From sequence record MK903282.1: a stretch of 64,000 nucleotides of DNA. One strand, 5' to 3'. The DNA is from Escherichia phage Mansfield. Shown one piece after another: positions 1 through 7,775 of this stretch. Position 1 is the first letter of the stretch. Each line of letters starts with the position of its first letter. The notes beneath the pieces are model-generated. The model was not told the DNA's origin. It ran no database searches and saw only the letters and a program-made list of their open reading frames with translations. Made by a program: the position numbers and the translations under genes.

Positions 1-70
1 ATTTTAAAATCATTTAAATTAATTTTTTTTCATATCCTCATACTTATACTAAACTTATATTTATACGTAC

Positions 71-132
71 TATCCGTAAGATATAAGTAAAAACAAAGAC
101 TTGCGGCAATACGGATGATACGTCATGATACG
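71..132. repeat. additional copies of the CGTATCATC iteron
   Basis: TATCCGTA at 71-78; inverted TACGGATGATACGTCATGATACG at 110-132. Confidence 0.6.
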
Positions 133-297
133 CTTCGACCAGCCAACAGCGGCTAAGTCATTGATTTGCATAACAAGCGGCGAAAGGGATGGATTTCTTT
201 TATACGTATCAAACAGTACACCACGCACCACGGTACGCTATTCATTCAGCACTATGATTTGTGTACGTTTACAGCCAATTTGAACATCAATCTGCAC

Positions 298-326
298 TTG
301 AATATAATGTTCATTCATTGTATAAT
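298..326 (+). promoter_or_regulatory. sigma70-like promoter TTGAAT-N17-TATAAT
   Basis: TTGAAT at 298-303, 17-nt spacer, TATAAT at 321-326; sits inside the long ORF 166..834, so the true start is downstream. Confidence 0.45.
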
Positions 327-360
327 TCACACTATTAATTTGCACTATGGGATTTGCACT

Positions 361-834
361 ATGAGTCAAGATTATGTAGCAATGCCTGAAGACTTTGAAG
401 ACCCGCGATTTGCAGAGCATAATCAGGCATTATTCGATGAGTTCATTGACCTTGTTATTCAGGGCCATGACATGCGCGCAGCTTTTGCACTAGTATTTGG
501 CATGGAGGTTGCGACCGATAACTACACTGGCCAGCGAATCCTCTGCACGCAACGCAATCCGTACTACAAGATGCGCTACAAAAAGCGTATGGAAGAGATG
601 CCATTGAAGGAATTGTGGAGCGTAAAGAGTTCCATCCACAATTTAGTGAAGCTTGTGCGTGATCCAGAAGTCGCGGCGTCAGCCAAGCTTAATGCCATTC
701 GTGAACTGAATATCATCTACGGCATCACGATGATTGATGAGAATGGCAATAGTAAAATGGGCCGTTCCATGGACGATTTCTACAAGGATTTTGGAGAGGC
801 AGCCAAAGAGGGTGAGCAATTCTCCCGCCACTAG
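361..834 (+). CDS. hypothetical early protein (157 aa)
   Basis: ORF 166..834 trimmed to ATG 361 because the predicted promoter lies inside the longer frame; ATG is embedded in 11-mer copy 2; no catalytic motif recognised. Confidence 0.5.
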   Translation: MSQDYVAMPEDFEDPRFAEHNQALFDEFIDLVIQGHDMRAAFALVFGMEVATDNYTGQRILCTQRNPYYKMRYKKRMEEMPLKELWSVKSSIHNLVKLVRDPEVAASAKLNAIRELNIIYGITMIDENGNSKMGRSMDDFYKDFGEAAKEGEQFSRH

Positions 835-853
835 CCAATTTGCACTATAAAAC

Positions 854-887
854 GGCCCTAGAACACATTTTCTCCACTTCTAGGGCC
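854..887 (+). other. stem-loop (8-bp perfect stem GGCCCTAG/CTAGGGCC, 18-nt loop)
   Basis: Inverted repeat immediately after the 361..834 stop and 11-mer copy 3; no U-tract, so not a canonical terminator. Confidence 0.35.
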
Positions 888-948
888 ATCGGTAATACGA
901 CGGGGAAGGTTACAACCGTAAACGCGTTAGAAGGTGTATTATTATAAG

Positions 949-1212
949 TCATCTTTTAGTCACTTTACGTAACAATTTACGACCTTCCGCCGTCCAGTCG
1001 AACGACTCCACCAGCAGATTTGCACTATAACCTAAGACGATGCGCCCTTTCTCGTTATCGACCCGCCAACAAGTCTCGAATAGCATTCGATTTGCACTGT
1101 TAACTATCGCCGCAACGCGCGCTGGGTAAGCGCAATTTGCACTATGGTCGTAAAGGGATAAGGTGCGACCACTTCCGATGGATAACGTAGCGATGAGAAT
1201 AAGCGTATTCAT
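949..1212 (-). CDS. hypothetical protein (87 aa), doubtful
   Basis: ORF with GGTGG 3 nt upstream; carries three antisense 11-mer copies; CpG-rich. Confidence 0.3.
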   Translation of the reverse strand: MNTLILIATLSIGSGRTLSLYDHSANCAYPARVAAIVNSANRMLFETCWRVDNEKGRIVLGYSANLLVESFDWTAEGRKLLRKVTKR

Positions 1213-1263
1213 AAGCCACCAATTTGCACTATGAAAAGCGACCCCCGAAGGGCCGCCATTCGA

Positions 1264-1890
1264 TTAGATAATCTGGAATGTGTAGGACTTGTTGCCGAAC
1301 TCGAAGTTCAAGCGCCCAGCTTCCTTAAGCTTCATACGGAAGCGAATGTGCTTGCTATCCGGTAATCCCAGCGCGGCGAACGCTACGCGGACCGATTTAA
1401 ACTCGCCTACACCTTCGACCATAACGCCGTTACGGGTGAGACGCTTTTGCGCTACTTCCTTGTTATCCCAACTTTTTGCAATACCTTCGCTATTCGAACG
1501 GCGATGAGAAGGAGTTCCATTTTGCACTACGCAATTTGCACTATCGTTTAGGCCGCTTTTAACGAAGGCTTCATACTCTTCGTCGGTCATCGCGTCGAGT
1601 TCTTCCTGAGTCGGCTCGGCCTTTTTAACGACCGCACGCGCCTTATGCGTTTTTACATCGCTGGACACTTCCTCGCGCGACTTCGCGTCGGGAATGGGCG
1701 ATTCGTTGGACGGCGCATCGAGCGCGTTTAAGGACTCGATCAACGCGATTACGCGAGTCTCGGCGGTCCGGCGGTCCGCGAATTTCTTAATCGGCTTCGA
1801 ACCGGAATTTGCATTATAAAATGCAACGAGGTCGGCGGTCTTAGTTGCGATAACGTCGCCGCTAGTAGAGAAGCGATTTAAGCTAACCAT
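1264..1890 (-). CDS. hypothetical protein (208 aa)
   Basis: SD context TAGGAGTTTATT-ATG as in the paralog cassettes; no own promoter seen, likely co-transcribed with 1971..2255. Confidence 0.55.
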   Translation of the reverse strand: MVSLNRFSTSGDVIATKTADLVAFYNANSGSKPIKKFADRRTAETRVIALIESLNALDAPSNESPIPDAKSREEVSSDVKTHKARAVVKKAEPTQEELDAMTDEEYEAFVKSGLNDSANCVVQNGTPSHRRSNSEGIAKSWDNKEVAQKRLTRNGVMVEGVGEFKSVRVAFAALGLPDSKHIRFRMKLKEAGRLNFEFGNKSYTFQII

Positions 1891-1970
1891 AATAAACTCC
1901 TATTTGTTAGGGCGCTAGGCGCGAAAGAATTTTATTAAAGCGCCGCGCACGACGCTCTAAAAATCCTCTC

Positions 1971-2255
1971 TTACGCTTCGACGAGGGAGAAGGTCTCAAA
2001 TTCTTCTTCGCCCATAACGAGTAAAATATTACCGATTTCGACCGCTTCGAAGAAGTATCCGTTAACGTTTACTTCGAAGGCTTCGCGGTCCGATTCCGGT
2101 AACGCCGCGTAAAGTTTAAAAGCCTCGGCGACCGTTACCCCACCCGCTTCGATAGTTTGGTCTACGTTCGCGGCGTAGACTTCGGATAAATTTTGTTTTA
2201 CGCCGTAGTTCTCGACGATAGCGTTACGGATAGAAGAAACGTTAAGAATAGCCAT
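1971..2255 (-). CDS. acidic small protein, paralog family member (94 aa)
   Basis: TAGGAG SD 6 nt upstream; shares blocks (NVDxTIE, xNGyfyexxEIG) with 2889..3179; net charge about -13. Confidence 0.6.
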   Translation of the reverse strand: MAILNVSSIRNAIVENYGVKQNLSEVYAANVDQTIEAGGVTVAEAFKLYAALPESDREAFEVNVNGYFFEAVEIGNILLVMGEEEFETFSLVEA

Positions 2256-2323
2256 TTTAAACTCCTAGTTGGGAGAGGCGTTAACGACCTATTCGTTAAC
2301 TCATCCCGTCCCGATATGAGTAC

Positions 2324-2351
2324 ATTATAATATAGTGTAGAAAAAAGTAAA
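2324..2351 (-). promoter_or_regulatory. sigma70-like promoter (minus strand) TTTACT-N16-TATAAT
   Basis: Reverse complement of 2346-2351 is TTTACT and of 2324-2329 is TATAAT; downstream 5'UTR aligns with that of the 2889 cassette. Confidence 0.55.
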
Positions 2352-2395
2352 GCACTTTTTCGATAAAAATGCGATAAATTATTTTATCTTTTTTC

Positions 2396-2423
2396 TTTAC
2401 TTCTTCGTACACTCGCGTATACT
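2396..2423 (+). promoter_or_regulatory. sigma70-like promoter TTTACT-N16-TATACT
   Basis: Shares CTTTACTTCTTCGTACACT and TATATCGAGAGG blocks with the promoter at 2793. Confidence 0.55.
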
Positions 2424-2477
2424 TATTTATATCGAGAGGCGATGGGCCTCTTCTCTTCTACCATCGGGAGTTTTATT

Positions 2478-2780
2478 ATGGCTACTTTAATTTCTTCTAT
2501 CCTTACTTACGACGAAGACCGTTTAACCGTTCGCTCTCTTATCGCCGCCGTTAACGCGGAACTAGAATCTAGCGCCATTAAGGTCCGCGCCGTCGCCTTC
2601 ATCGGCCTTTCCTTCGACGATATTAAATACGCCGAACGTAGCGCCATCCGCTTCGCGAAGACCGACGACGAAGCCGTTACCCTTATCGAGACGGTTACGC
2701 CGCGCGGCGAAGCGTTAATTATCGTCGAGTATATCGACGTAGAAGGCGATAAGGCGTATAAATATTTTATCGCAAAATAA
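2478..2780 (+). CDS. acidic small protein, paralog family member (100 aa)
   Basis: ORF 2442..2780 trimmed to ATG 2478 (GGGAG SD 8 nt upstream); weaker similarity to the other two paralogs. Confidence 0.55.
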   Translation: MATLISSILTYDEDRLTVRSLIAAVNAELESSAIKVRAVAFIGLSFDDIKYAERSAIRFAKTDDEAVTLIETVTPRGEALIIVEYIDVEGDKAYKYFIAK

Positions 2781-2792
2781 CGAAAAAAGTGC

Positions 2793-2821
2793 TTTACTTC
2801 TTCGTACACTAAGACTATAAT
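2793..2821 (+). promoter_or_regulatory. sigma70-like promoter TTTACT-N17-TATAAT
   Basis: TTTACT 2793-2798, TATAAT 2816-2821; conserved 5'UTR then TAGGAG SD. Confidence 0.6.
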
Positions 2822-2888
2822 GTTTTATATCGAGAGGGGATGAGGTAGCGAATAGGTCGCTACCCTTCCGACTAACTAGGAGAATATT

Positions 2889-3179
2889 ATGATTACTTTA
2901 TCCGCTATCCGTTCCGCTCGCGTCGAAACTTCCGAAAACTCTAACGTATTTGGCGAAACGTTAGAGAGCGTTTATCTCTCTAACGTAGACGCGACTATCG
3001 AGTCTATTTATGAACCGATCAACTTCCTCGACCTTTACAAGTATCGCGACGAGGACGTAGTATCCTACCGCGTAACGATTAACGGCTTCGTCTATACGAT
3101 TACCGAAATCGGCGGCGAATATATCGCTGTACCGCAACTCGGCGGAGAGGTGACTTATTTTAAAATCGTCTCCTTATAA
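2889..3179 (+). CDS. acidic small protein, paralog family member (96 aa)
   Basis: TAGGAG SD; paralogous to 1971..2255; net acidic. Confidence 0.6.
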   Translation: MITLSAIRSARVETSENSNVFGETLESVYLSNVDATIESIYEPINFLDLYKYRDEDVVSYRVTINGFVYTITEIGGEYIAVPQLGGEVTYFKIVSL

Positions 3180-3199
3180 TACCCTTCCGTTACTAATAG

Positions 3200-3224
3200 G
3201 CCGCGCTTAGTCGCGGCTTTTCTT
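3200..3224 (+). terminator. rho-independent terminator
   Basis: GCCGCG / CGCGGC 6-bp stem, 6-nt loop, followed by TTTTCTT; 20 nt after the 2889..3179 stop. Confidence 0.6.
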
Positions 3225-3344
3225 CGTCCCTATCCCGATGCGCGTCCTACGCGAAAACTCCTTTATCCTTCCCTTCGTCGTCGCATAATCTTCTTCGAGA
3301 TGCGCCTTAGTTCGCATAAGAGGTATTACGTTAAATGGAGAACA

Positions 3345-3418
3345 TCGCGTAAGTCCTTGTTTTATATAGACACCTATATCGGACCGTTAGGGAGGGTCGC
3401 GTAAGTCGTTGTTTTATA
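3345..3418. repeat. 22-bp direct repeat x2 (TCGCGTAAGTC[C/G]TTGTTTTATA)
   Basis: Copies at 3345-3366 and 3397-3418, one mismatch, in non-coding DNA. Confidence 0.7.
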
Positions 3419-3543
3419 AAGGCGCAAAACTTTCCCTTCGTTCCGAACTAAAACGAGAAATATGCCGACCCTTCGACGAAAAATAGTACGCATGCGAAAT
3501 TACCGACATCTAGAATAATCCCCACCGATATTATCCTACACGC

Positions 3544-3597
3544 AATCATTAGCTTTCGAATCATTATGCTTCATATCATTATGCGTCGAATCATTCG
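3544..3597. repeat. four phased copies of ATCATT (period 14-16 nt)
   Basis: ATCATT at 3545, 3561, 3575, 3590, each flanked by similar G/AAATCATTATG context. Confidence 0.5.
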
Positions 3598-3695
3598 CTT
3601 TCAAATTGTAACGCTGGAAACTGTAACGGCGATTGATTATTGCGTTCGTGTGGTTTTTAGGGCATGGGTCTTTTGGTGCGTTTTGGTACTTGATG

Positions 3696-3808
3696 AAATT
3701 TGCAGTACACTAATCAAAATACGACACATTCGGTCCACTAACTTTTCAAAGAAAAAGTCCCAGACAGTACCGTACTATTTTGTGCCCACAGTAAATTTGC
3801 AGTACACT
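3696..3808. repeat. 16-bp direct repeat x2 (AAATTTGCAGTACACT)
   Basis: Copies at 3696-3711 and 3793-3808; shares the ATTTGCA core with the 11-mer array. Confidence 0.7.
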
Positions 3809-3842
3809 CCTGCGCGGCAGGCAAAATAAAGGGCCGCAGCAG

Positions 3843-3884
3843 CGACCCACGACCCACGACCCACGACCCACGACCCACGACCCA
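3843..3884. repeat. tandem heptamer (CGACCCA) x6
   Basis: Six perfect head-to-tail copies; followed by a 12-bp direct repeat CCCACTATTCAC at 3881 and 3909. Confidence 0.85.
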
Positions 3885-3913
3885 CTATTCACGGTTAAAG
3901 CACCATCCACCCA

Positions 3914-4309
3914 CTATTCACTCTTATGGGCATCACCAAAGCCATCCGCAATCTGGCTGATCAGCGATTCAATGGACACAGTTTTACCAATTGATCGAGC
4001 GGTAATAGCAAGCATATTATCAATCAAACCGCGATTGACTGCATATGTTTCAGGTTTTGATTCATCTCCAGGACAACCAAAAAGCTGGTCGCGCAAACTT
4101 TCGAGGGAACGCTCAATATTTTCCAGCTTCTCTTCTAAATCGGATTGGCGACGTAAAACCCATGTTAAGTCGCGGTTGCCGACTTCCAATCCATTATAAT
4201 CGCAAGATGGAACGTCAATTTTGATGCTGCCACCAAAGGCCATTCCGCTGCCTTTAGTATATGCGTGGTGAATAGAATCATTTTTATTTGACATATCATT
4301 ACCTTTCAT
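3914..4309 (-). CDS. hypothetical protein (131 aa)
   Basis: ORF; no motif recognised. Confidence 0.5.
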   Translation of the reverse strand: MKGNDMSNKNDSIHHAYTKGSGMAFGGSIKIDVPSCDYNGLEVGNRDLTWVLRRQSDLEEKLENIERSLESLRDQLFGCPGDESKPETYAVNRGLIDNMLAITARSIGKTVSIESLISQIADGFGDAHKSE

Positions 4310-4367
4310 GAGGGTGATTAACTTAAATTATAATAAAGCCGCATAGCGCGGCATTCAAATCGGTTTG

Positions 4368-4616
4368 TTAATTGTAACGATTGGATTCATCAATCGATAC
4401 CAACTGTGCTGGGTCGCCGGATACGGTCGAGCCAACGATACCCATCTGCTGAAAGAACTCTGAATAAACTTCCTTCCAGTATTTACGCGCTGCTTTCTGA
4501 GCCTGTCCTTTGCGCTTGAAGCTTTTACCTTGAAAGATGAAACGGTCGCTTGCCGCTCGATACTCCACCACACCTTCCAGCCATTGTAAGAATGCTACTG
4601 ATTCATTCTGATTCAT
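4368..4616 (-). CDS. hypothetical protein (82 aa)
   Basis: ORF; overlapping alternative frame 4355..4573 judged less likely. Confidence 0.4.
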   Translation of the reverse strand: MNQNESVAFLQWLEGVVEYRAASDRFIFQGKSFKRKGQAQKAARKYWKEVYSEFFQQMGIVGSTVSGDPAQLVSIDESNRYN

Positions 4617-4623
4617 GTTAACC

Positions 4624-5019
4624 TCAATATTTTAATAAGAAAGCACCCAACCAACTTTCCTCAATCTCGCGCCCAGTAGCCACACGGTCGGTCTTTGCCA
4701 TGGGTCTGGATTCGCCACATGGCAATCCGTCTTGTAGTTGTGTACTATTTCCAATTCTCACCATGACCTTTCCATCAGGGGCGATATAAGCGCGACAACC
4801 CATGATTTCGAGTCGTTGTAGACACTGGCGAATCGTTTTCAGCCTTTCACCGGACCGGATAGAGCGCGGTCGCGACCGCTGACCGTTCTTATTCACTGTA
4901 CGCTTAACGACAGGAATCTCATTGGTGCGTTGCGCTTTCGGTCGGTAGTAGGCTTCTTCTCCAGGAGTTGCGCCTGGCGTCAATTCGCGCTTGAGAGCCT
5001 TTTCAATATCGATGATCAT
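4624..5019 (-). CDS. hypothetical basic protein (131 aa)
   Basis: ORF; Arg/Lys-rich N-terminal half. Confidence 0.5.
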   Translation of the reverse strand: MIIDIEKALKRELTPGATPGEEAYYRPKAQRTNEIPVVKRTVNKNGQRSRPRSIRSGERLKTIRQCLQRLEIMGCRAYIAPDGKVMVRIGNSTQLQDGLPCGESRPMAKTDRVATGREIEESWLGAFLLKY

Positions 5020-5022
5020 GAT

Positions 5023-5121
5023 TTATGCCGCTGCAGCGTAAACAATTGCATAAGCAATTCCAAATAGCGCGGCGATGCATACCGTGCCCCAAAGTGCAAA
5101 GCGTCGTGACTCTTTATCCAT
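5023..5121 (-). CDS. small hydrophobic peptide (32 aa), tentative
   Basis: Not in the ORF track (<60 aa); ATG abuts the stop of 5122..5409 (TAAATG); translation MDKESRRFALWGTVCIAALFGIAYAIVYAAAA. Confidence 0.25.
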   Translation of the reverse strand: MDKESRRFALWGTVCIAALFGIAYAIVYAAAA

Positions 5122-5409
5122 TTATTTATCCCCAACGTCCATGAAATTAAACACTAATTTTGCCATGTCATCTTGTGAAACGACACTGTAGTGTTTAGGC
5201 AAATTGCTTTCTGACAATACCTTCTGGGCTTCTTCTGCCGTCTCAAACAAAGGAATGCACCAATTAACTGCGTCGCCAGAATCATTGCTATCAACTTGTT
5301 TCAAGAAAACCAAGCGGTTGTCTTCAGGATCAATTCCGCAAATCACGTATTTAGGCAATGCTTTTGCTTTTTGGGCCTTATCGATGTCTTCAAATTTCAT
5401 TTCATTCAC
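5122..5409 (-). CDS. hypothetical protein (95 aa)
   Basis: ORF. Confidence 0.5.
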   Translation of the reverse strand: MNEMKFEDIDKAQKAKALPKYVICGIDPEDNRLVFLKQVDSNDSGDAVNWCIPLFETAEEAQKVLSESNLPKHYSVVSQDDMAKLVFNFMDVGDK

Positions 5410-5483
5410 CTCACTTGTTAACGTATAATGAGTATAACTTAATAGAGCATAAAGTAAAGGCGCTTTTCAGCGCCTTGAGTGAA

Positions 5484-7775
5484 TTATTTTGCTGCCTTTA
5501 GCGCGGCTATCTCTGCCTTCAAATCTTCAATTTGCTTATTGAGATACTGCACACAACCCATCAAGTCCATGACGATTGGGTTGTTGTCCACTGAAGGTCG
5601 GTCGCGCGTCTTCTCGCCTATCTTATTGCCTTCCTCATCAAAAATATCCTCATAAGGCATTTCATGATGCTTGATGTATTGTGGTGCGATCACCTCCGCT
5701 TCTTCGGCAATAATCCCGAATCTTACGCGCTCTTGCTCGTCATCCTTGTAGACAAAGTTCACTAGACGCTGTGAATTGATTCTGTCCATCGCTTCCTTTG
5801 CATCTGCATCAACGATGTCCCTTTTATATTCAAGACCGGACGTGCCTTGAAGCGCGATTGTTCCAGATGTTGAAGTCGGGAAGTCGAGAGTGATTTCACC
5901 AGTACGGTTGCCATCCTTGCGACGGAAGAATAAACGATAGTAGCGCGTACCGTTGGTGCCCAGCGCGGCTTCAAAAAACATCATACCGCCTACAACCGTG
6001 TCAGGGACTGTTCCGCCGCCGATGTAGTTTGGCTTCATCGAAAGTTGCGGGTACTGCCCATCAATGATTGAAACGCTGCCAGCAAATACTGCGTTTCCTT
6101 TGGAAGTTATCATCCCAGGGGCAGTAAAATCACCTCTTTCGTTAAAGTCATATACCGCTGTCAATCCGCTTGTTCGGTTATACACGTTTAAACGTGCATA
6201 ATACGTCGCGCCAATCGCTGCGCGGATACGCCAACTCATTTGCGCTTCTTGAACGCCATTAACGTTGTAGCGTGAAATGATTTCGCCGCCGTCAGCAGTG
6301 GTGCCTGGGCCTGGCATAGCGGAGTCACCAGTGATCACACTCCAAGATGTATTCGCTGCAACAAACCCGCCAGATGCACGAATAACCCAGACGCCTACAA
6401 AGCAGTCAGGGCGCACCTTTGACGAGCGTCCGTAAGCGGCATTCGACCTGCTTGCGCTATAGTTGAATGTTCCGTATCTGGTTTCAGAAGAAGGCGTTGC
6501 AATATTTATTGCTTGGTTGTTTTGTGAAGAAAAAGAGAATGCACCATATCCATTGCCTGTTTGATATGTATACGCGGTGAAAGAGCCTGTTATGTCTGGG
6601 GCACCGTTTTCAAACACATCACCTGCAGCAGATGATATTCCGCCGTCACCACGTCCGAACAATTCCTTAATTGAACCCGTCTGCACGCCGTTAAAATCAG
6701 GTACGCGAAATGTCGTCGTACCGTTACCGGAAGAATAACGACCGCGTTTTTTCGAGTCTGCAAGCCAGTCAGCATCAGCAATAGGGGAAAGCATTTGTGC
6801 ATACGCCCAAAGCTCAGGCCAGTCTGCACGGTTAAGTAATTGACCGTCCGCTACGACCTCGTACGGTTGGATATATGCACGACTATTTCGTAAGTGGAAG
6901 TCCCCAACGCCATAGTTCATAACACCGTTCATGTTTGGCCCAACGGTGCCTGTATTTACTAAGTTTTCCACCCAACGCTTTGTCGCGGCATCATAATCGT
7001 TGACTGGGTCACCAGCAAGCGGCGTTGAACCTTGTGGGCGAATGTTTAACCATGCTTGAGCATTCTCTCCAGAGCCTGTGCCGCCCATGGAAGTCGGAAC
7101 AACGCTCTGATCGGCCACAGGTCCGAATCCGAATGCATCTTTCATCCCCTGAATTGTGGTTTGGCCTGTTCCACCGTTCGATATTGGGATGATGCTCTGC
7201 TCACTGTAGATTGCTTTCCAAGGACTCCAACCAACAACTGGGTCATGAACTCGAATAAATTGAGAACCATTATTGTTGTATATGGTGTATATTTGTACGC
7301 ATCCATCAGCGCCATTTGCATAATTCTGCTTAACTTCCAGAACACCAGCAATTTGGGCTGGATAGTTTAGAGCAGGTGATGCATTGCTTGATCTGTCTTG
7401 ATAATAATAACCAAACCAGGTGCCAGTCAGAGCATTGAGATTTATTCCAGATGGAATAGGCCCGAAATTTCTAACAGTATTGGTCAAAGATGCGGCAGTA
7501 GTACGAATTGAAAGTAAATCACCAGCCGCCCATGCACGTGCTGCCGTACCTTCTTGTGCACGTTGAACGGTCAGGACGTTTCCAACCACGGCTGTTACTG
7601 TGACGATTTCGAATTGGAGGCCTGTTGCAGCGTCGACGATTGTCGCCACTACACGCTCGTTTGCGCCCAAAGTCGGAAAACCCGACCCTGAGCGAATTGT
7701 TATTGTGGTGTCTGAAGTCGTCGTTGGTTGAGCCAGCGCGACCTCAAAGTTGTTTTTGAATATTAGCCTTGGCAT
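5484..7775 (-). CDS. tail fiber/tailspike with C-terminal intramolecular chaperone (peptidase S74-like) domain
   Basis: 763 aa, Gly/Ser/Thr/Asn-rich body; C-terminal ~110 aa (...SGLEYKRDIVD...RFGIIAEEAEVIAPQY...IEDLKAEIAALKAAK) matches the autoproteolytic chaperone domain of phage fibers. Confidence 0.75.
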   Translation of the reverse strand: MPRLIFKNNFEVALAQPTTTSDTTITIRSGSGFPTLGANERVVATIVDAATGLQFEIVTVTAVVGNVLTVQRAQEGTAARAWAAGDLLSIRTTAASLTNTVRNFGPIPSGINLNALTGTWFGYYYQDRSSNASPALNYPAQIAGVLEVKQNYANGADGCVQIYTIYNNNGSQFIRVHDPVVGWSPWKAIYSEQSIIPISNGGTGQTTIQGMKDAFGFGPVADQSVVPTSMGGTGSGENAQAWLNIRPQGSTPLAGDPVNDYDAATKRWVENLVNTGTVGPNMNGVMNYGVGDFHLRNSRAYIQPYEVVADGQLLNRADWPELWAYAQMLSPIADADWLADSKKRGRYSSGNGTTTFRVPDFNGVQTGSIKELFGRGDGGISSAAGDVFENGAPDITGSFTAYTYQTGNGYGAFSFSSQNNQAINIATPSSETRYGTFNYSASRSNAAYGRSSKVRPDCFVGVWVIRASGGFVAANTSWSVITGDSAMPGPGTTADGGEIISRYNVNGVQEAQMSWRIRAAIGATYYARLNVYNRTSGLTAVYDFNERGDFTAPGMITSKGNAVFAGSVSIIDGQYPQLSMKPNYIGGGTVPDTVVGGMMFFEAALGTNGTRYYRLFFRRKDGNRTGEITLDFPTSTSGTIALQGTSGLEYKRDIVDADAKEAMDRINSQRLVNFVYKDDEQERVRFGIIAEEAEVIAPQYIKHHEMPYEDIFDEEGNKIGEKTRDRPSVDNNPIVMDLMGCVQYLNKQIEDLKAEIAALKAAK

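What the first reader, a model, noticed from the sequence alone, without database searches (positions are those of the whole stretch)
1971..3179. Triplicated promoter/5'UTR/acidic-small-protein cassette with conserved regulation and diverged coding sequence
Three ORFs of 94-100 aa (1971..2255 minus, 2478..2780 plus, 2889..3179 plus) are mutual paralogs sharing blocks such as NVDxTIE and xNGyfyexxEIG. Each is preceded by its own sigma70-like promoter (TTTACT-N16/17-TATAAT or TATACT) and a conserved ~55-nt 5'UTR (TATATCGAGAGG...GCGAATAGGTCG...TAGGAG) that is far better conserved than the proteins. All three are net acidic (about -6 to -13). Strong host-type promoters, acidic small products and fast protein divergence are the pattern seen for early anti-restriction or host-takeover proteins; a diversifying counter-defence family is a hypothesis, not a demonstrated function.
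Basis: partly seen in the sequence, partly recalled or inferred. Interest (0 to 1): 0.8.

Follow-up and report, generated by a model that had tools for sequence, protein, structure and literature searches.

The report
Phage early-gene cassettes in TG/CA-free island
Three copies of one promoter-plus-leader unit drive small acidic proteins of unknown function in the terminal repeat of an E. coli Wifcevirus phage, and the roughly 2 kb of DNA that holds them almost completely lacks the dinucleotides TG and CA, an unexplained feature shared with distant relatives.

Summary
The window is a Wifcevirus, an E. coli myovirus. The locus lies inside its ~3.7-kb direct terminal repeat.

- **Promoters and leaders:** three copies of one sigma70-type promoter core are real. 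Each has a 5'-proximal leader stem-loop. The A and C stem-loops covary, and their loop recurs in a Serratia phage genus.
- **Proteins:** only A and C are demonstrable paralogs (BLASTP E=3e-7). B belongs to a separate sequence family. No protein matches Pfam, PHROGs or PDB sequences. Structure models are low confidence.
- **Variable content:** the slot after promoter A holds A, an unrelated acidic protein, or nothing, depending on the strain. Other strains carry extra small genes here.

I read the locus as an early, host-RNA-polymerase-driven accessory module. Counter-defence or host takeover is plausible but undemonstrated.

The stronger result is new. The cassettes sit in a sharply bounded island (window about 1350-3500).
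- CA/TG observed/expected is 0.24.
- CG and TA are each doubled. GATC is depleted.
- All other dinucleotides are unchanged.

The same island occurs in three other lineages that share no nucleotide similarity. Genes shared with unrelated siphoviruses are recoded to remove TG/CA when they lie in the island. The cause is unknown.

The parts
1..3754 (.). Direct terminal repeat (DTR) of the phage genome; it contains the whole locus
   Evidence: In WFC (MK373777), record positions 68689-72472 repeat positions 1-3784. Window coordinates track WFC coordinates apart from a 30-nt difference in slot A. Korf et al. 2019 report a terminal repeat of about 3.7 kb (PMC6563267).
1350..3500 (.). TG/CA-depleted, CG/TA-enriched island (core 1850-3300)
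   Evidence: CA/TG observed/expected 0.24 against 1.19 in the rest of the window. CG 2.18 against 1.09. TA 1.30 against 0.65. All other dinucleotides unchanged. Depletion occurs in all three codon phases and in non-coding DNA. It is the only such region in the 64-kb window.
1264..1890 (-). 208-aa core gene, co-transcribed downstream of A; the island's left boundary falls inside it
   Evidence: Matches phrog_4730, E=5.6e-88. Homologs occur in 355 phage records of the Pbunavirus/Wifcevirus supergroup. dN/dS is 0.01. In ECML-117 and RCIP0319 the A promoter and leader drive this gene directly.
1971..2255 (-). ORF A, 94 aa, net charge -12 (family AC)
   Evidence: Present in 11 phage records. Replaced by an unrelated 104-aa acidic protein (A') in 11 records. 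Absent in others.
2256..2317 (-). Leader of A, with stem-loop GUUAACGA-AUAGG-UCGUUAAC at 2280-2300
   Evidence: Fold; covariation. The transcription start is inferred from the -10 position, not measured.
2324..2352 (-). Promoter P_A (TTTACT-16-TATAAT)
2353..2394 (.). AT-rich spacer between the divergent promoters P_A and P_B, with imperfect inverted repeat GATAAAAAT...ATTTTATC
   Evidence: 99% mean pairwise identity across six genomes. Sequence read. A role as an operator or UP element is inferred only.
2395..2423 (+). Promoter P_B (TTTACT-16-TATACT)
2429..2477 (+). Leader of B, with stem-loop GAGAGGC-GAUGG-GCCUCUU at 2434-2452
   Evidence: Fold. Orthologous leaders in WFC and ECO71P1 have different stems at the same place.
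2478..2780 (+). ORF B, 100 aa, net charge -5 (family B, separate from A and C)
   Evidence: Distant homolog L080_125, E=1e-6.
2792..2821 (+). Promoter P_C (TTTACT-17-TATAAT)
2827..2888 (+). Leader of C, with stem-loop GGUAGCGA-AUAGG-UCGCUACC at 2844-2864
2889..3179 (+). ORF C, 96 aa, net charge -8 (family AC)
3198..3219 (+). Intrinsic terminator-like hairpin after C
   Evidence: Annotated as a terminator in WFC.
337..1817 (+). Array of eight AATTTGCACTAT motifs, all on the + strand; two lie inside the 208-aa gene
   Evidence: 8 copies against 0.73 expected, and none elsewhere in the window. The motif also flanks the island in the distant relative L080.

Best explanation
The locus is an early accessory gene module in the direct terminal repeat of a Wifcevirus.

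The module is built from three copies of a portable expression unit. Each unit has an A-rich upstream tract, a sigma70-type promoter (-35 TTTACT, -10 TATAAT or TATACT), a leader of about 50-60 nt that starts AUAUCGRGA and folds into a stem-loop about 5 nt from the inferred 5' end, an unstructured AU-rich stretch, and a strong Shine-Dalgarno sequence.

Inferred mechanism: host RNA polymerase fires these promoters as soon as the repeat enters the cell. The 5' stem-loop protects or marks the mRNA. Small acidic proteins are made at high level and bind host targets.

The repeated promoter and leader also serve as recombination substrates. Through them the genes behind are swapped, lost or gained between strains.

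A and C are paralogs. B is a different family that uses the same expression unit.

I think the most likely role of the proteins is host takeover or counter-defence. That is inference, not a result.

The module lies in a ~2-kb island under strong, position-specific selection against CA:TG base steps and GATC. Both strands are depleted equally, so this acts most simply on double-stranded DNA. Its cause is unknown.
For: Shown:
- Three promoter copies, far beyond chance.
- Location in the terminal repeat.
- Leader stem-loops. They carry compensatory changes: 97.5% of cells paired, 5 of 8 pairs changed on both sides, 0 of 500 shuffles as good. The loop CGAAUAGGUCG is identical in the Serratia Myosmarvirus leader.
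- A and C are homologous.
- The ORFs are real genes. Homologs of C and B, at 36% and 28% identity, lie side by side in the distant relative L080. dN/dS is below 1.
- The same promoter and leader drive A, A' or the 208-aa gene in different strains.
- Some strains have extra genes of 50 and 69 aa.
- The island signature is present in four lineages.
- Genes shared with unrelated siphoviruses are recoded. TG+CA falls from 15.0% to 3.3% of positions in one and from 16.4% to 6.2% in the other.

Context:
- Relatives depend on host sigma70-type promoters (PMC10914365).
- Wifcevirus isolates resist most tested restriction-modification systems with no known mechanism (PMC11990801).
Against: - There is no expression data for any Wifcevirus. 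Transcription starts and timing are inferred from consensus matches.
- No protein has a family, fold or solved-structure relative.
- Leader folding energies are not outliers (z = -1.1 to -1.7), and the covariation rests on only five distinct sequences.
- B, and C within its common allele class, are well conserved. That does not match an arms-race picture.
- Restriction resistance in this genus could come from something unrelated, such as an unrecognised DNA modification or virion proteins.
- The left 1.35 kb of the same repeat has normal composition. 'First DNA to enter' therefore does not by itself explain the island.
Confidence: 0.6

Rival explanations
1. Counter-defence in the narrow sense. 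A, B, C and A' are DNA-mimic or other inhibitors of restriction or other defence systems. They would account for the restriction resistance of the genus.
For: - The proteins are acidic (pI 4.05-4.67).
- They have early-type promoters at the genome end.
- The locus is strain-variable.
- The genus resists EcoKI, EcoCFT_I, EcoRI (38 sites), EcoRV and EcoCFT_II (92 sites) with no known mechanism.
Against: - No Ocr or ArdA family match.
- No confident structure.
- One protein family rarely blocks type I, II and III enzymes together.
- Strains that lack A (ECML-117 group) or carry A' have not been reported to differ in restriction sensitivity. Bas98, which carries A', and Bas99, which carries A, are described alike.
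Confidence: 0.3
2. The TG/CA-free island is a 'stealth leader'. It would be the first DNA exposed in the cell, purged of the motifs of host nucleases and methyltransferases until the early proteins have accumulated. This resembles slow, transcription-coupled genome entry in T7 or two-step entry in T5.
For: - It lies in the terminal repeat, so either end delivers it first.
- CA and TG are depleted equally on the sense strand (33 against 30), which fits recognition of duplex DNA.
- GATC is also about 4-fold depleted in all four islands.
- Dam (GATC), Dcm (CCWGG) and EcoKI (AACN6GTGC) sites are all impossible in such DNA (motifs from my own knowledge).
- Acquired genes are recoded.
Against: - By my rough estimate, removing one dinucleotide step eliminates only about half of arbitrary type I or type III motifs.
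- EcoRI, EcoRV and EcoP1I motifs contain no TG/CA.
- CG- and TA-containing palindromes (TCGA, CTAG) are enriched 3-fold or more. There is no general avoidance of palindromes.
- The first 1.35 kb of the repeat is not depleted.
- A Salmonella-infecting relative has no island at all.
Confidence: 0.2
3. The island must stay free of a CA:TG-directed process of the phage itself. Candidates are a DNA modification, a DNA-coating protein, or a host-DNA-degrading nuclease that would otherwise block or destroy the template for early transcription.
For: - The constraint is specific to this region and acts on both strands.
- It extends about 300 bp past the terminator into non-coding DNA.
- The genus resists restriction with no identified protection mechanism.
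Against: - No modification enzyme was recognised. The thymidylate synthase is ThyX, not a dUMP hydroxymethylase. The 'polynucleotide kinase' matches only a PNKP phosphatase domain.
- A CA/TG-directed modification would not protect EcoRI or EcoRV sites.
Confidence: 0.12
4. The island evades an RNA-level attack. The early mRNAs would lack CA and UG to escape an endoribonuclease, either a host toxin or a phage shut-off RNase, or to avoid internal NUG start codons.
For: - The island largely coincides with the early transcription units.
- Almost the only UG left in the L080 genes is in the start codons.
Against: - CA and UG are depleted equally in each mRNA while UA and CG are enriched. That pattern is natural for one duplex step and awkward for a single-strand RNase.
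- Depletion continues downstream of the terminator.
- I know of no RNase with this specificity.
Confidence: 0.1
5. The leader stem-loop with loop AUAGG is a specific protein-binding or processing site, such as a translational operator, an RNase III-type site or an antitermination element, rather than a generic 5' stabiliser.
For: The sequence CGAAUAGGUCG is invariant across two genera while the rest of the stem covaries. A generic stabiliser would not need a fixed loop.
Against: - B-type leaders work with unrelated hairpins.
- L080 has yet another hairpin.
- No Rfam family matches.
- The loop is not like the GNRA-type boxB loop.
Confidence: 0.3

Closest known systems
T5 pre-early (first-step-transfer) region in the long terminal repeat
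   Same: Early genes lie inside a long direct terminal repeat. They are read from host-type promoters and encode many small proteins of unknown function. A repeat-rich non-coding stretch lies near the inner end of the repeat (window about 3540-3750).
   Different: No homology to T5 A1, A2 or dmp was detected. The repeat is 3.7 kb against about 10 kb. Two-step DNA transfer is not known for Wifcevirus. I know of no report of a TG/CA-free composition in T5, and I did not test T5.
SPO1 host-takeover module in the terminal redundancy
   Same: A cluster of small genes, each with a strong host-type promoter and a strong ribosome-binding site, located in the terminal redundancy.
   Different: Different host and no sequence relationship. 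Here the promoter and leader are near-identical copies, and gene content varies between strains.
T7 early region (promoters A1-A3, gene 0.3/Ocr)
   Same: Strong host promoters at the genome end drive a small, very acidic first product. Structured RNA elements lie in the early transcripts.
   Different: There is no Ocr family match. The hairpins sit at the inferred 5' end rather than at intergenic RNase III sites. There are divergent promoters and three separate units.
5'-terminal stabiliser stem-loops (ompA-type leaders)
   Same: A stem-loop lies within a few nucleotides of the 5' end, followed by an unstructured region that holds the ribosome-binding site.
   Different: The loop sequence is conserved across genera, which suggests specific recognition. 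The 5' end is not mapped.
Restriction-site and oligonucleotide avoidance in phage genomes (for example GATC or palindrome avoidance)
   Same: A short sequence is depleted well below expectation, and GATC is depleted as well.
   Different: Here a dinucleotide step is removed 4- to 25-fold. The depletion is confined to about 2 kb of a 68-kb genome, and palindromes that contain CG or TA are enriched.
Fungal repeat-induced point mutation (RIP) signature
   Same: CpA/TpG is depleted, TpA is gained, and the region contains duplicated sequence.
   Different: CG is doubled as well, GC content is kept, and the ORFs are intact and under purifying selection. The pattern fits selection within coding constraints, not mutational decay.

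Membership tests
   A-C: E=3e-7. A-B and C-B: no alignment. hhalign of AC against B: probability below 1%, even with distant members added. The two low-confidence AF2 models do share the same order of secondary-structure elements, so a common fold is not excluded.
Ocr / ArdA-type DNA-mimic anti-restriction proteins | Match to the family profile (Pfam Ocr, ArdA) | tested here: not met
   No Pfam hit at E of 1 or below apart from DUF6694 below threshold. No PHROG. No PDB sequence relative.
Ocr / ArdA-type DNA-mimic anti-restriction proteins | Fold that displays acidic residues in a DNA-like array | tested here: inconclusive
Ocr / ArdA-type DNA-mimic anti-restriction proteins | Inhibition of type I restriction in vivo or in vitro | not testable with these tools
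   Needs expression in hosts that carry restriction systems.
Terminal-repeat early / host-takeover modules (T5 pre-early, SPO1) | Location within the direct terminal repeat | tested here: met
Terminal-repeat early / host-takeover modules (T5 pre-early, SPO1) | Multiple host-type promoters with strong ribosome-binding sites in front of small genes | tested here: met
   These are consensus matches only.
Terminal-repeat early / host-takeover modules (T5 pre-early, SPO1) | Expression in the first minutes and a host shut-off phenotype | not testable with these tools
   No Wifcevirus transcriptome turned up in the literature searches run here.
5' stabiliser or regulatory stem-loop | Conserved base pairing with compensatory changes | tested here: met
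   There are only five distinct sequences, so the evidence is limited.
Lambda-type nut/boxB antitermination site | boxA plus a short hairpin with a GNRA-like pentaloop, and an N-like protein | tested here: not met
   The loop is AUAGG. No boxA-like element was seen in the sequence. No Rfam hit.
Any Rfam RNA family | Covariance-model match | tested here: not met
   Only chance-level hits with E above 1 in 1-6000.
Thymidine-hypermodifying phages (considered as a cause of the island) | dUMP hydroxymethylase (ThyA-like) plus a 5-hmdU DNA kinase | tested here: not met
   The phage encodes ThyX (PF02511) and a PNKP phosphatase-domain protein only.

The most novel reading that the evidence does not exclude
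The ~2-kb TG/CA-free, GATC-poor island is a previously undescribed kind of genome region. It would be an early-gene 'safe zone' kept free of one DNA base step because a process directed at CA:TG steps in double-stranded DNA acts on this family of phages during the first minutes of infection. That process could be an unknown host nuclease or binder, or the phage's own modification or host-DNA-degrading activity. Any gene that lands in the zone is recoded to fit. The small acidic proteins would be the effectors that end the vulnerable period.
Probability: 0.3. Interest if true: 0.9.

Novelty: new variant of a known kind. Interest (0 to 1): 0.72.

Why it matters
The cassettes alone would be another set of uncharacterised early phage genes. 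They gain interest because this genus resists most tested restriction systems with no known mechanism, and these strain-variable early genes are obvious candidates to test.

The island matters more. One dinucleotide step is removed 4- to 25-fold from just 2 kb. The depletion is maintained in four lineages that have diverged beyond nucleotide similarity, and it is imposed on horizontally acquired genes. This implies a strong, position-specific constraint that is currently unnamed.

Finding its cause could uncover either a new defence or counter-defence principle or a new aspect of how phage DNA is handled at entry.

The promoter-and-leader unit is also a compact, apparently strong and portable expression element.

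Tried and rejected
- **Family searches.** Pfam and PHROGs scans of A, B, C and neighbours found no family, except phrog_4730 and phrog_4783 (both of unknown function) for two neighbours.
- **Rfam.** A permissive scan of 1-6000 gave nothing.
- **Homolog searches.** Three word-indexed searches and one exhaustive profile search found homologs only in Wifcevirus-like contigs, plus one distant relative.
- **Ig-repeat hits.** The exhaustive search also hit giant Big_13 Ig-repeat proteins. I regard these as repeat-inflated matches to a beta-strand pattern. C itself does not hit Big_13.
- **Solved structures.** PDB sequence searches were empty.
- **Unifying the families.** Profile-profile attempts to join families AC, B and A' failed.
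- **Hairpin scan.** A scan of viral contigs with TATAAT-N(12-40)-CGAATAGGTCG gave 66 loci. By my rough estimate of the collection's size, that number is within what chance would give. Only the Wifcevirus and Myosmarvirus loci combine the hairpin with the island. L040 is a terminator between lysis genes. L015 is of unclear relevance.
- **Thymidine hypermodification.** Rejected as the cause of the island for lack of the enzymes.
- **Codon- or tRNA-level cause.** Rejected because depletion across codon boundaries is as strong as within codons.
- **Mutational decay of the RIP type.** Rejected because the genes are intact and constrained.
- **A trait of all relatives or all enterobacterial hosts.** Rejected. 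A Salmonella relative has no island, and the region around the core gene in Pseudomonas phage 14-1 has none.
- **Literature.** A search for a description of such an island found nothing relevant.
- **Multi-genome identity profile.** The profile is distorted by indels around C, so I do not use its C values.
Full report
**What the window is.** Window 1200-3600 matches 28 phage records at 92-96% identity. All are Wifcevirus myoviruses of E. coli or Shigella, such as WFC, WFH, ECML-117, FEC19 and Bas98-101. Window coordinates track the WFC record. In WFC, record positions 68689-72472 repeat positions 1-3784. Korf et al. report a terminal repeat of about 3.7 kb (PMC6563267). The finding therefore lies inside the direct terminal repeat, which spans window 1 to about 3754.

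**Check of the observation.**
- The three ORFs are as described.
- The 19-nt promoter core CTTTACTTCTTCGTACACT occurs at 2334-2352 (-), 2395-2413 (+) and 2792-2810 (+). Shuffles expect 0.02 copies.
- The hexamers are TTTACT-16/17-TATAAT, or TATACT for B.
- The upstream regions of A and C are 81% identical over 105 nt. Their coding DNA is 63% identical, about baseline for this scoring.
- B shares the promoter and the first leader bases (UAUAUCGAGAGG). It has a different, shorter hairpin and lacks GCGAATAGGTCG.
- Net charges are -12, -5 and -8.

**Are the proteins paralogs?**
- A and C are homologous (BLASTP E=3e-7, 33% identity).
- B aligns with neither. Profile-profile comparison gives probabilities below 1%, both before and after adding distant members.
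- Homolog searches find A, B and C only on Wifcevirus-sized contigs.
- An exhaustive profile search adds one distant C homolog, P0040. It is encoded on a 23-kb metagenomic contig, L080.
- On L080 the C-like gene is followed by a gene whose product matches B at E=1e-6.
- The sequence families in these islands are therefore AC, B and A'. A' is a 104-aa acidic protein that fills slot A in WFC and Bas98. It is homologous to a 93-aa protein of Pantoea phage PA1 at E=1e-5.
- There are also unplaced small acidic proteins in Serratia phage SMP and in PA1.
- AlphaFold models of C and B are low confidence (pLDDT 60.5 and 54.5). Both show the order helix-helix-(strand)-helix-four strands. A shared fold is possible but unproven.

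**The expression unit.**
- Each leader folds into a stem-loop that begins about 5-6 nt after the inferred start. An unstructured stretch follows, with UAGGAG or GGGAG and the AUG.
- The folding energies are not outliers (z = -1.1 to -1.7).
- The A and C stems differ by compensatory changes: GGUAGCGA/UCGCUACC against GUUAACGA/UCGUUAAC.
- Serratia phage SMP and two Myosmarvirus contigs carry, behind their own TATAAT box, a hairpin with the identical core CGAAUAGGUCG on a third stem, GUCGGGCGA/UCGCCCGGC.
- On five distinct sequences, 97.5% of cells pair and five of eight pairs change on both sides. None of 500 shuffles does as well. The sample is small.
- B-type leaders in the window, WFC and ECO71P1 have three different stems at the same position.
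- No Rfam family matches.
- I infer a 5' stem-loop that stabilises or marks the mRNA. The invariant loop hints at a specific binding partner.

**A variable accessory locus.**
- Behind P_A and its leader, eleven records carry A and eleven carry A'.
- ECML-117 and RCIP0319 carry neither, so the same promoter and leader drive the 208-aa gene directly.
- ECO71P1, AV128 and RCIP0363 have an extra 50-aa gene between B and C.
- ECML-117, FEC19, Eco4M-7, SP13, F13 and Ro157lw have an extra 69-aa gene after C.
- In L080 the C-like gene precedes the B-like gene.
- C exists as two allele classes with 62% aa identity, dS 0.66 and dN/dS 0.47. The N and C termini are identical and the middle is diverged, which looks like recombination.
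- B has dN/dS 0.18, and the 208-aa gene has 0.01.
- The pattern is cassette and allele replacement under purifying selection.
- The 208-aa gene is a core gene of the Pbunavirus/Wifcevirus supergroup, found in 355 records. Its function is unknown.

**The TG/CA-free island.** This is the most unusual property of the region.
- From about 1350 to 3500 (core 1850-3300), the strand-symmetric CA/TG observed/expected ratio is 0.24, against 1.19 in the rest of the window. CG is 2.18 against 1.09. TA is 1.30 against 0.65. Every other dinucleotide is unchanged.
- No other part of the 64-kb window resembles it.
- Depletion is 3.5-fold at codon positions 1-2, 12-fold at positions 2-3 and 11-fold across codon boundaries. 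It also holds in non-coding DNA. It therefore acts on the nucleic acid, not through amino-acid or tRNA usage.
- The proteins' lack of His, Gln, Cys, Trp and internal Met is a by-product.
- On the sense strand, CA (33) and TG (30) are equally rare. One duplex step, CA:TG, explains this most simply.
- Within coding constraints, the cheapest fixes for TG and CA are transitions to CG and TA. That accounts for the doubling of exactly those two dinucleotides while the pyrimidine-purine step fraction stays nearly constant (0.22-0.24 against 0.25-0.27).
- The surviving TG/CA sit in start codons and in conserved promoter and leader positions.
- Even the -35 hexamer, TTTACT, is a TG/CA-free version of TTGACA.
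- GATC is about 4-fold depleted in the islands. CTAG, rare elsewhere in these genomes, is enriched in three of the four islands (geometric mean 4.7-fold).

**The island is conserved without sequence similarity.**
- Sharply bounded islands of 1.8-2.2 kb with the same signature occur in three other lineages:
  - Serratia phage SMP, a Myosmarvirus (L013, 6900-8700).
  - Pantoea phage PA1, a Kylevirus (L010, 3350-5400).
  - The metagenomic relative L080 (5300-7150), which has only five TG/CA in one kilobase.
- Each island holds early-type promoters, small acidic proteins and a copy or the 5' half of the 208-aa family gene.
- In about 400 kb of unrelated viral contigs and in 50 kb of Bas99 outside the repeat, no 800-bp window falls below 0.5, apart from one marginal case at 0.47.
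- A Salmonella-infecting relative has no island anywhere; its lowest window is 0.81. The 10 kb around the core gene in Pseudomonas phage 14-1 has none.

**Location-dependent recoding.**
- The 50-aa accessory gene is 76% identical in protein to a gene of the unrelated Salmonella siphovirus Segz_1. The island copy has 5 TG/CA (3.3% of positions). The siphovirus copy has 23 (15.0%).
- The 69-aa gene has 13 (6.2%), against 35 (16.4%) in its Klebsiella Webervirus homolog.
- Whichever way the transfer went, composition follows location. A force is acting on the island now.

**What causes it?** I could not establish this.
- A codon- or tRNA-level cause and mutational decay are rejected.
- Thymidine hypermodification lacks the enzymes.
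- Evasion of a single-strand RNase fits the overlap with transcription units. It does not fit the symmetric pattern or the depleted ~300 bp beyond the terminator.
- Avoidance of nuclease or methyltransferase motifs on the first DNA exposed in the cell fits the terminal position and the GATC depletion. However, it removes only part of possible motifs, coexists with enrichment of TCGA and CTAG, and does not cover the first 1.35 kb of the repeat.
- A process of the phage itself directed at CA:TG steps remains possible, but no candidate gene was found.
- Published phenotyping shows the genus resists EcoKI, EcoCFT_I, EcoRI (38 sites in Bas99), EcoRV (8 sites) and EcoCFT_II (92 sites). It is sensitive to EcoP1_I (89 sites). 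No known protection mechanism has been identified (PMC11990801). This makes an unidentified early counter-defence function likely somewhere in these genomes. It does not assign that function to A, B or C.

**Verdict.**
- The triplicated promoter-and-leader unit and the small acidic products are real.
- The 'three paralogs' claim is only two-thirds right.
- The counter-defence reading is reasonable but untested.
- The locus resembles the terminal-repeat early modules of T5 and SPO1 and the T7 early region in layout. It is not a member of any defined protein or RNA family.
- The TG/CA-free island, its conservation across genera and the recoding of acquired genes were not described in any paper I could search. 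They are the main reason to follow this up.

Noticed in passing
window 1350-3500; also L013 6900-8700, L010 3350-5400, L080 5300-7150: An island of about 2 kb almost free of TG/CA, with CG and TA doubled. It is conserved in four phage lineages that share no nucleotide similarity.
   Followed up: yes
window 1850-3500 and the three other islands: GATC is about 4-fold depleted in all four islands. CTAG is enriched in three of the four islands (geometric mean 4.7-fold) relative to the same genomes. In the window there is 1 GATC and 6 CTAG in 1.65 kb, against 1.8 and 0.3 per kb elsewhere.
   Followed up: partly
window 337-1817 (+ strand); L080 5121-5170: There are eight copies of AATTTGCACTAT, all on the + strand and all in the left part of the terminal repeat, against 0.73 expected and none elsewhere in 64 kb. 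One copy overlaps the start codon of the 157-aa ORF at 361. Two lie inside the 208-aa gene. The motif is conserved next to the island in the distant relative L080. It could be a binding array for a regulator, for packaging or for replication.
   Followed up: partly
L006 2197-2349 (ECO71P1); L084 1928-2137 (ECML-117): Some strains carry extra accessory genes in the same operon. One encodes a 50-aa protein with 76% identity to a Salmonella Segzyvirus gene. The other encodes a 69-aa basic protein with 45% identity to a Klebsiella Webervirus 'transcriptional regulator'. Both are recoded towards TG/CA-free sequence in the island.
   Followed up: yes
window 1264-1890 (-): The 208-aa protein (phrog_4730) is a core gene of unknown function in 355 phage records, mostly Pseudomonas Pbunavirus. 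The island boundary falls in the middle of this gene in Wifcevirus, PA1 and L080. Serratia phage SMP has a second, shorter paralog inside its island. This suggests the island recombined into the resident gene.
   Followed up: partly
window 2353-2394: The 42-bp AT-rich spacer between the divergent promoters P_A and P_B is 99% conserved. It contains direct CGATAAA repeats and an imperfect palindrome, GATAAAAAT...ATTTTATC. It may be a shared operator or UP element. It also resembles the H-NS nucleation motif TCGATAAATT, which I recall from memory.
   Followed up: no
window 3346-3424 and 3540-3650: Downstream of the terminator lie two ~23-bp direct repeats (CGCGTAAGTCNTTGTTTTATA). Beyond them is a cluster of short repeats (AATCATT, CGAATCATT, GTAACG) near the inner end of the terminal repeat. 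A similar repeat cluster follows the island in L080 (7190-7400).
   Followed up: no
window 3843-3885: A tandem heptamer repeat, (CGACCCA) about six times, lies just outside the terminal repeat. It overlaps a terminator-like hairpin on the minus strand downstream of the 131-aa ORF at 3914-4309.
   Followed up: no
P0041-P0043: The A/C profile hits giant bacterial Big_13 Ig-repeat proteins in 5 to 12 stretches each. This probably reflects a generic 'xVxVNGxxYTxT' beta-strand pattern inflated by repetition. It may hint at a beta-hairpin-rich C-terminal half.
   Followed up: partly
L015 6408-6470: An unrelated 6.7-kb viral contig has TATAAT, a 12-bp-stem hairpin with the same CGAATAGGTCG core, GGAG and ATG in the same layout, but with normal TG/CA content. 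This could be chance or a wider distribution of the hairpin.
   Followed up: partly
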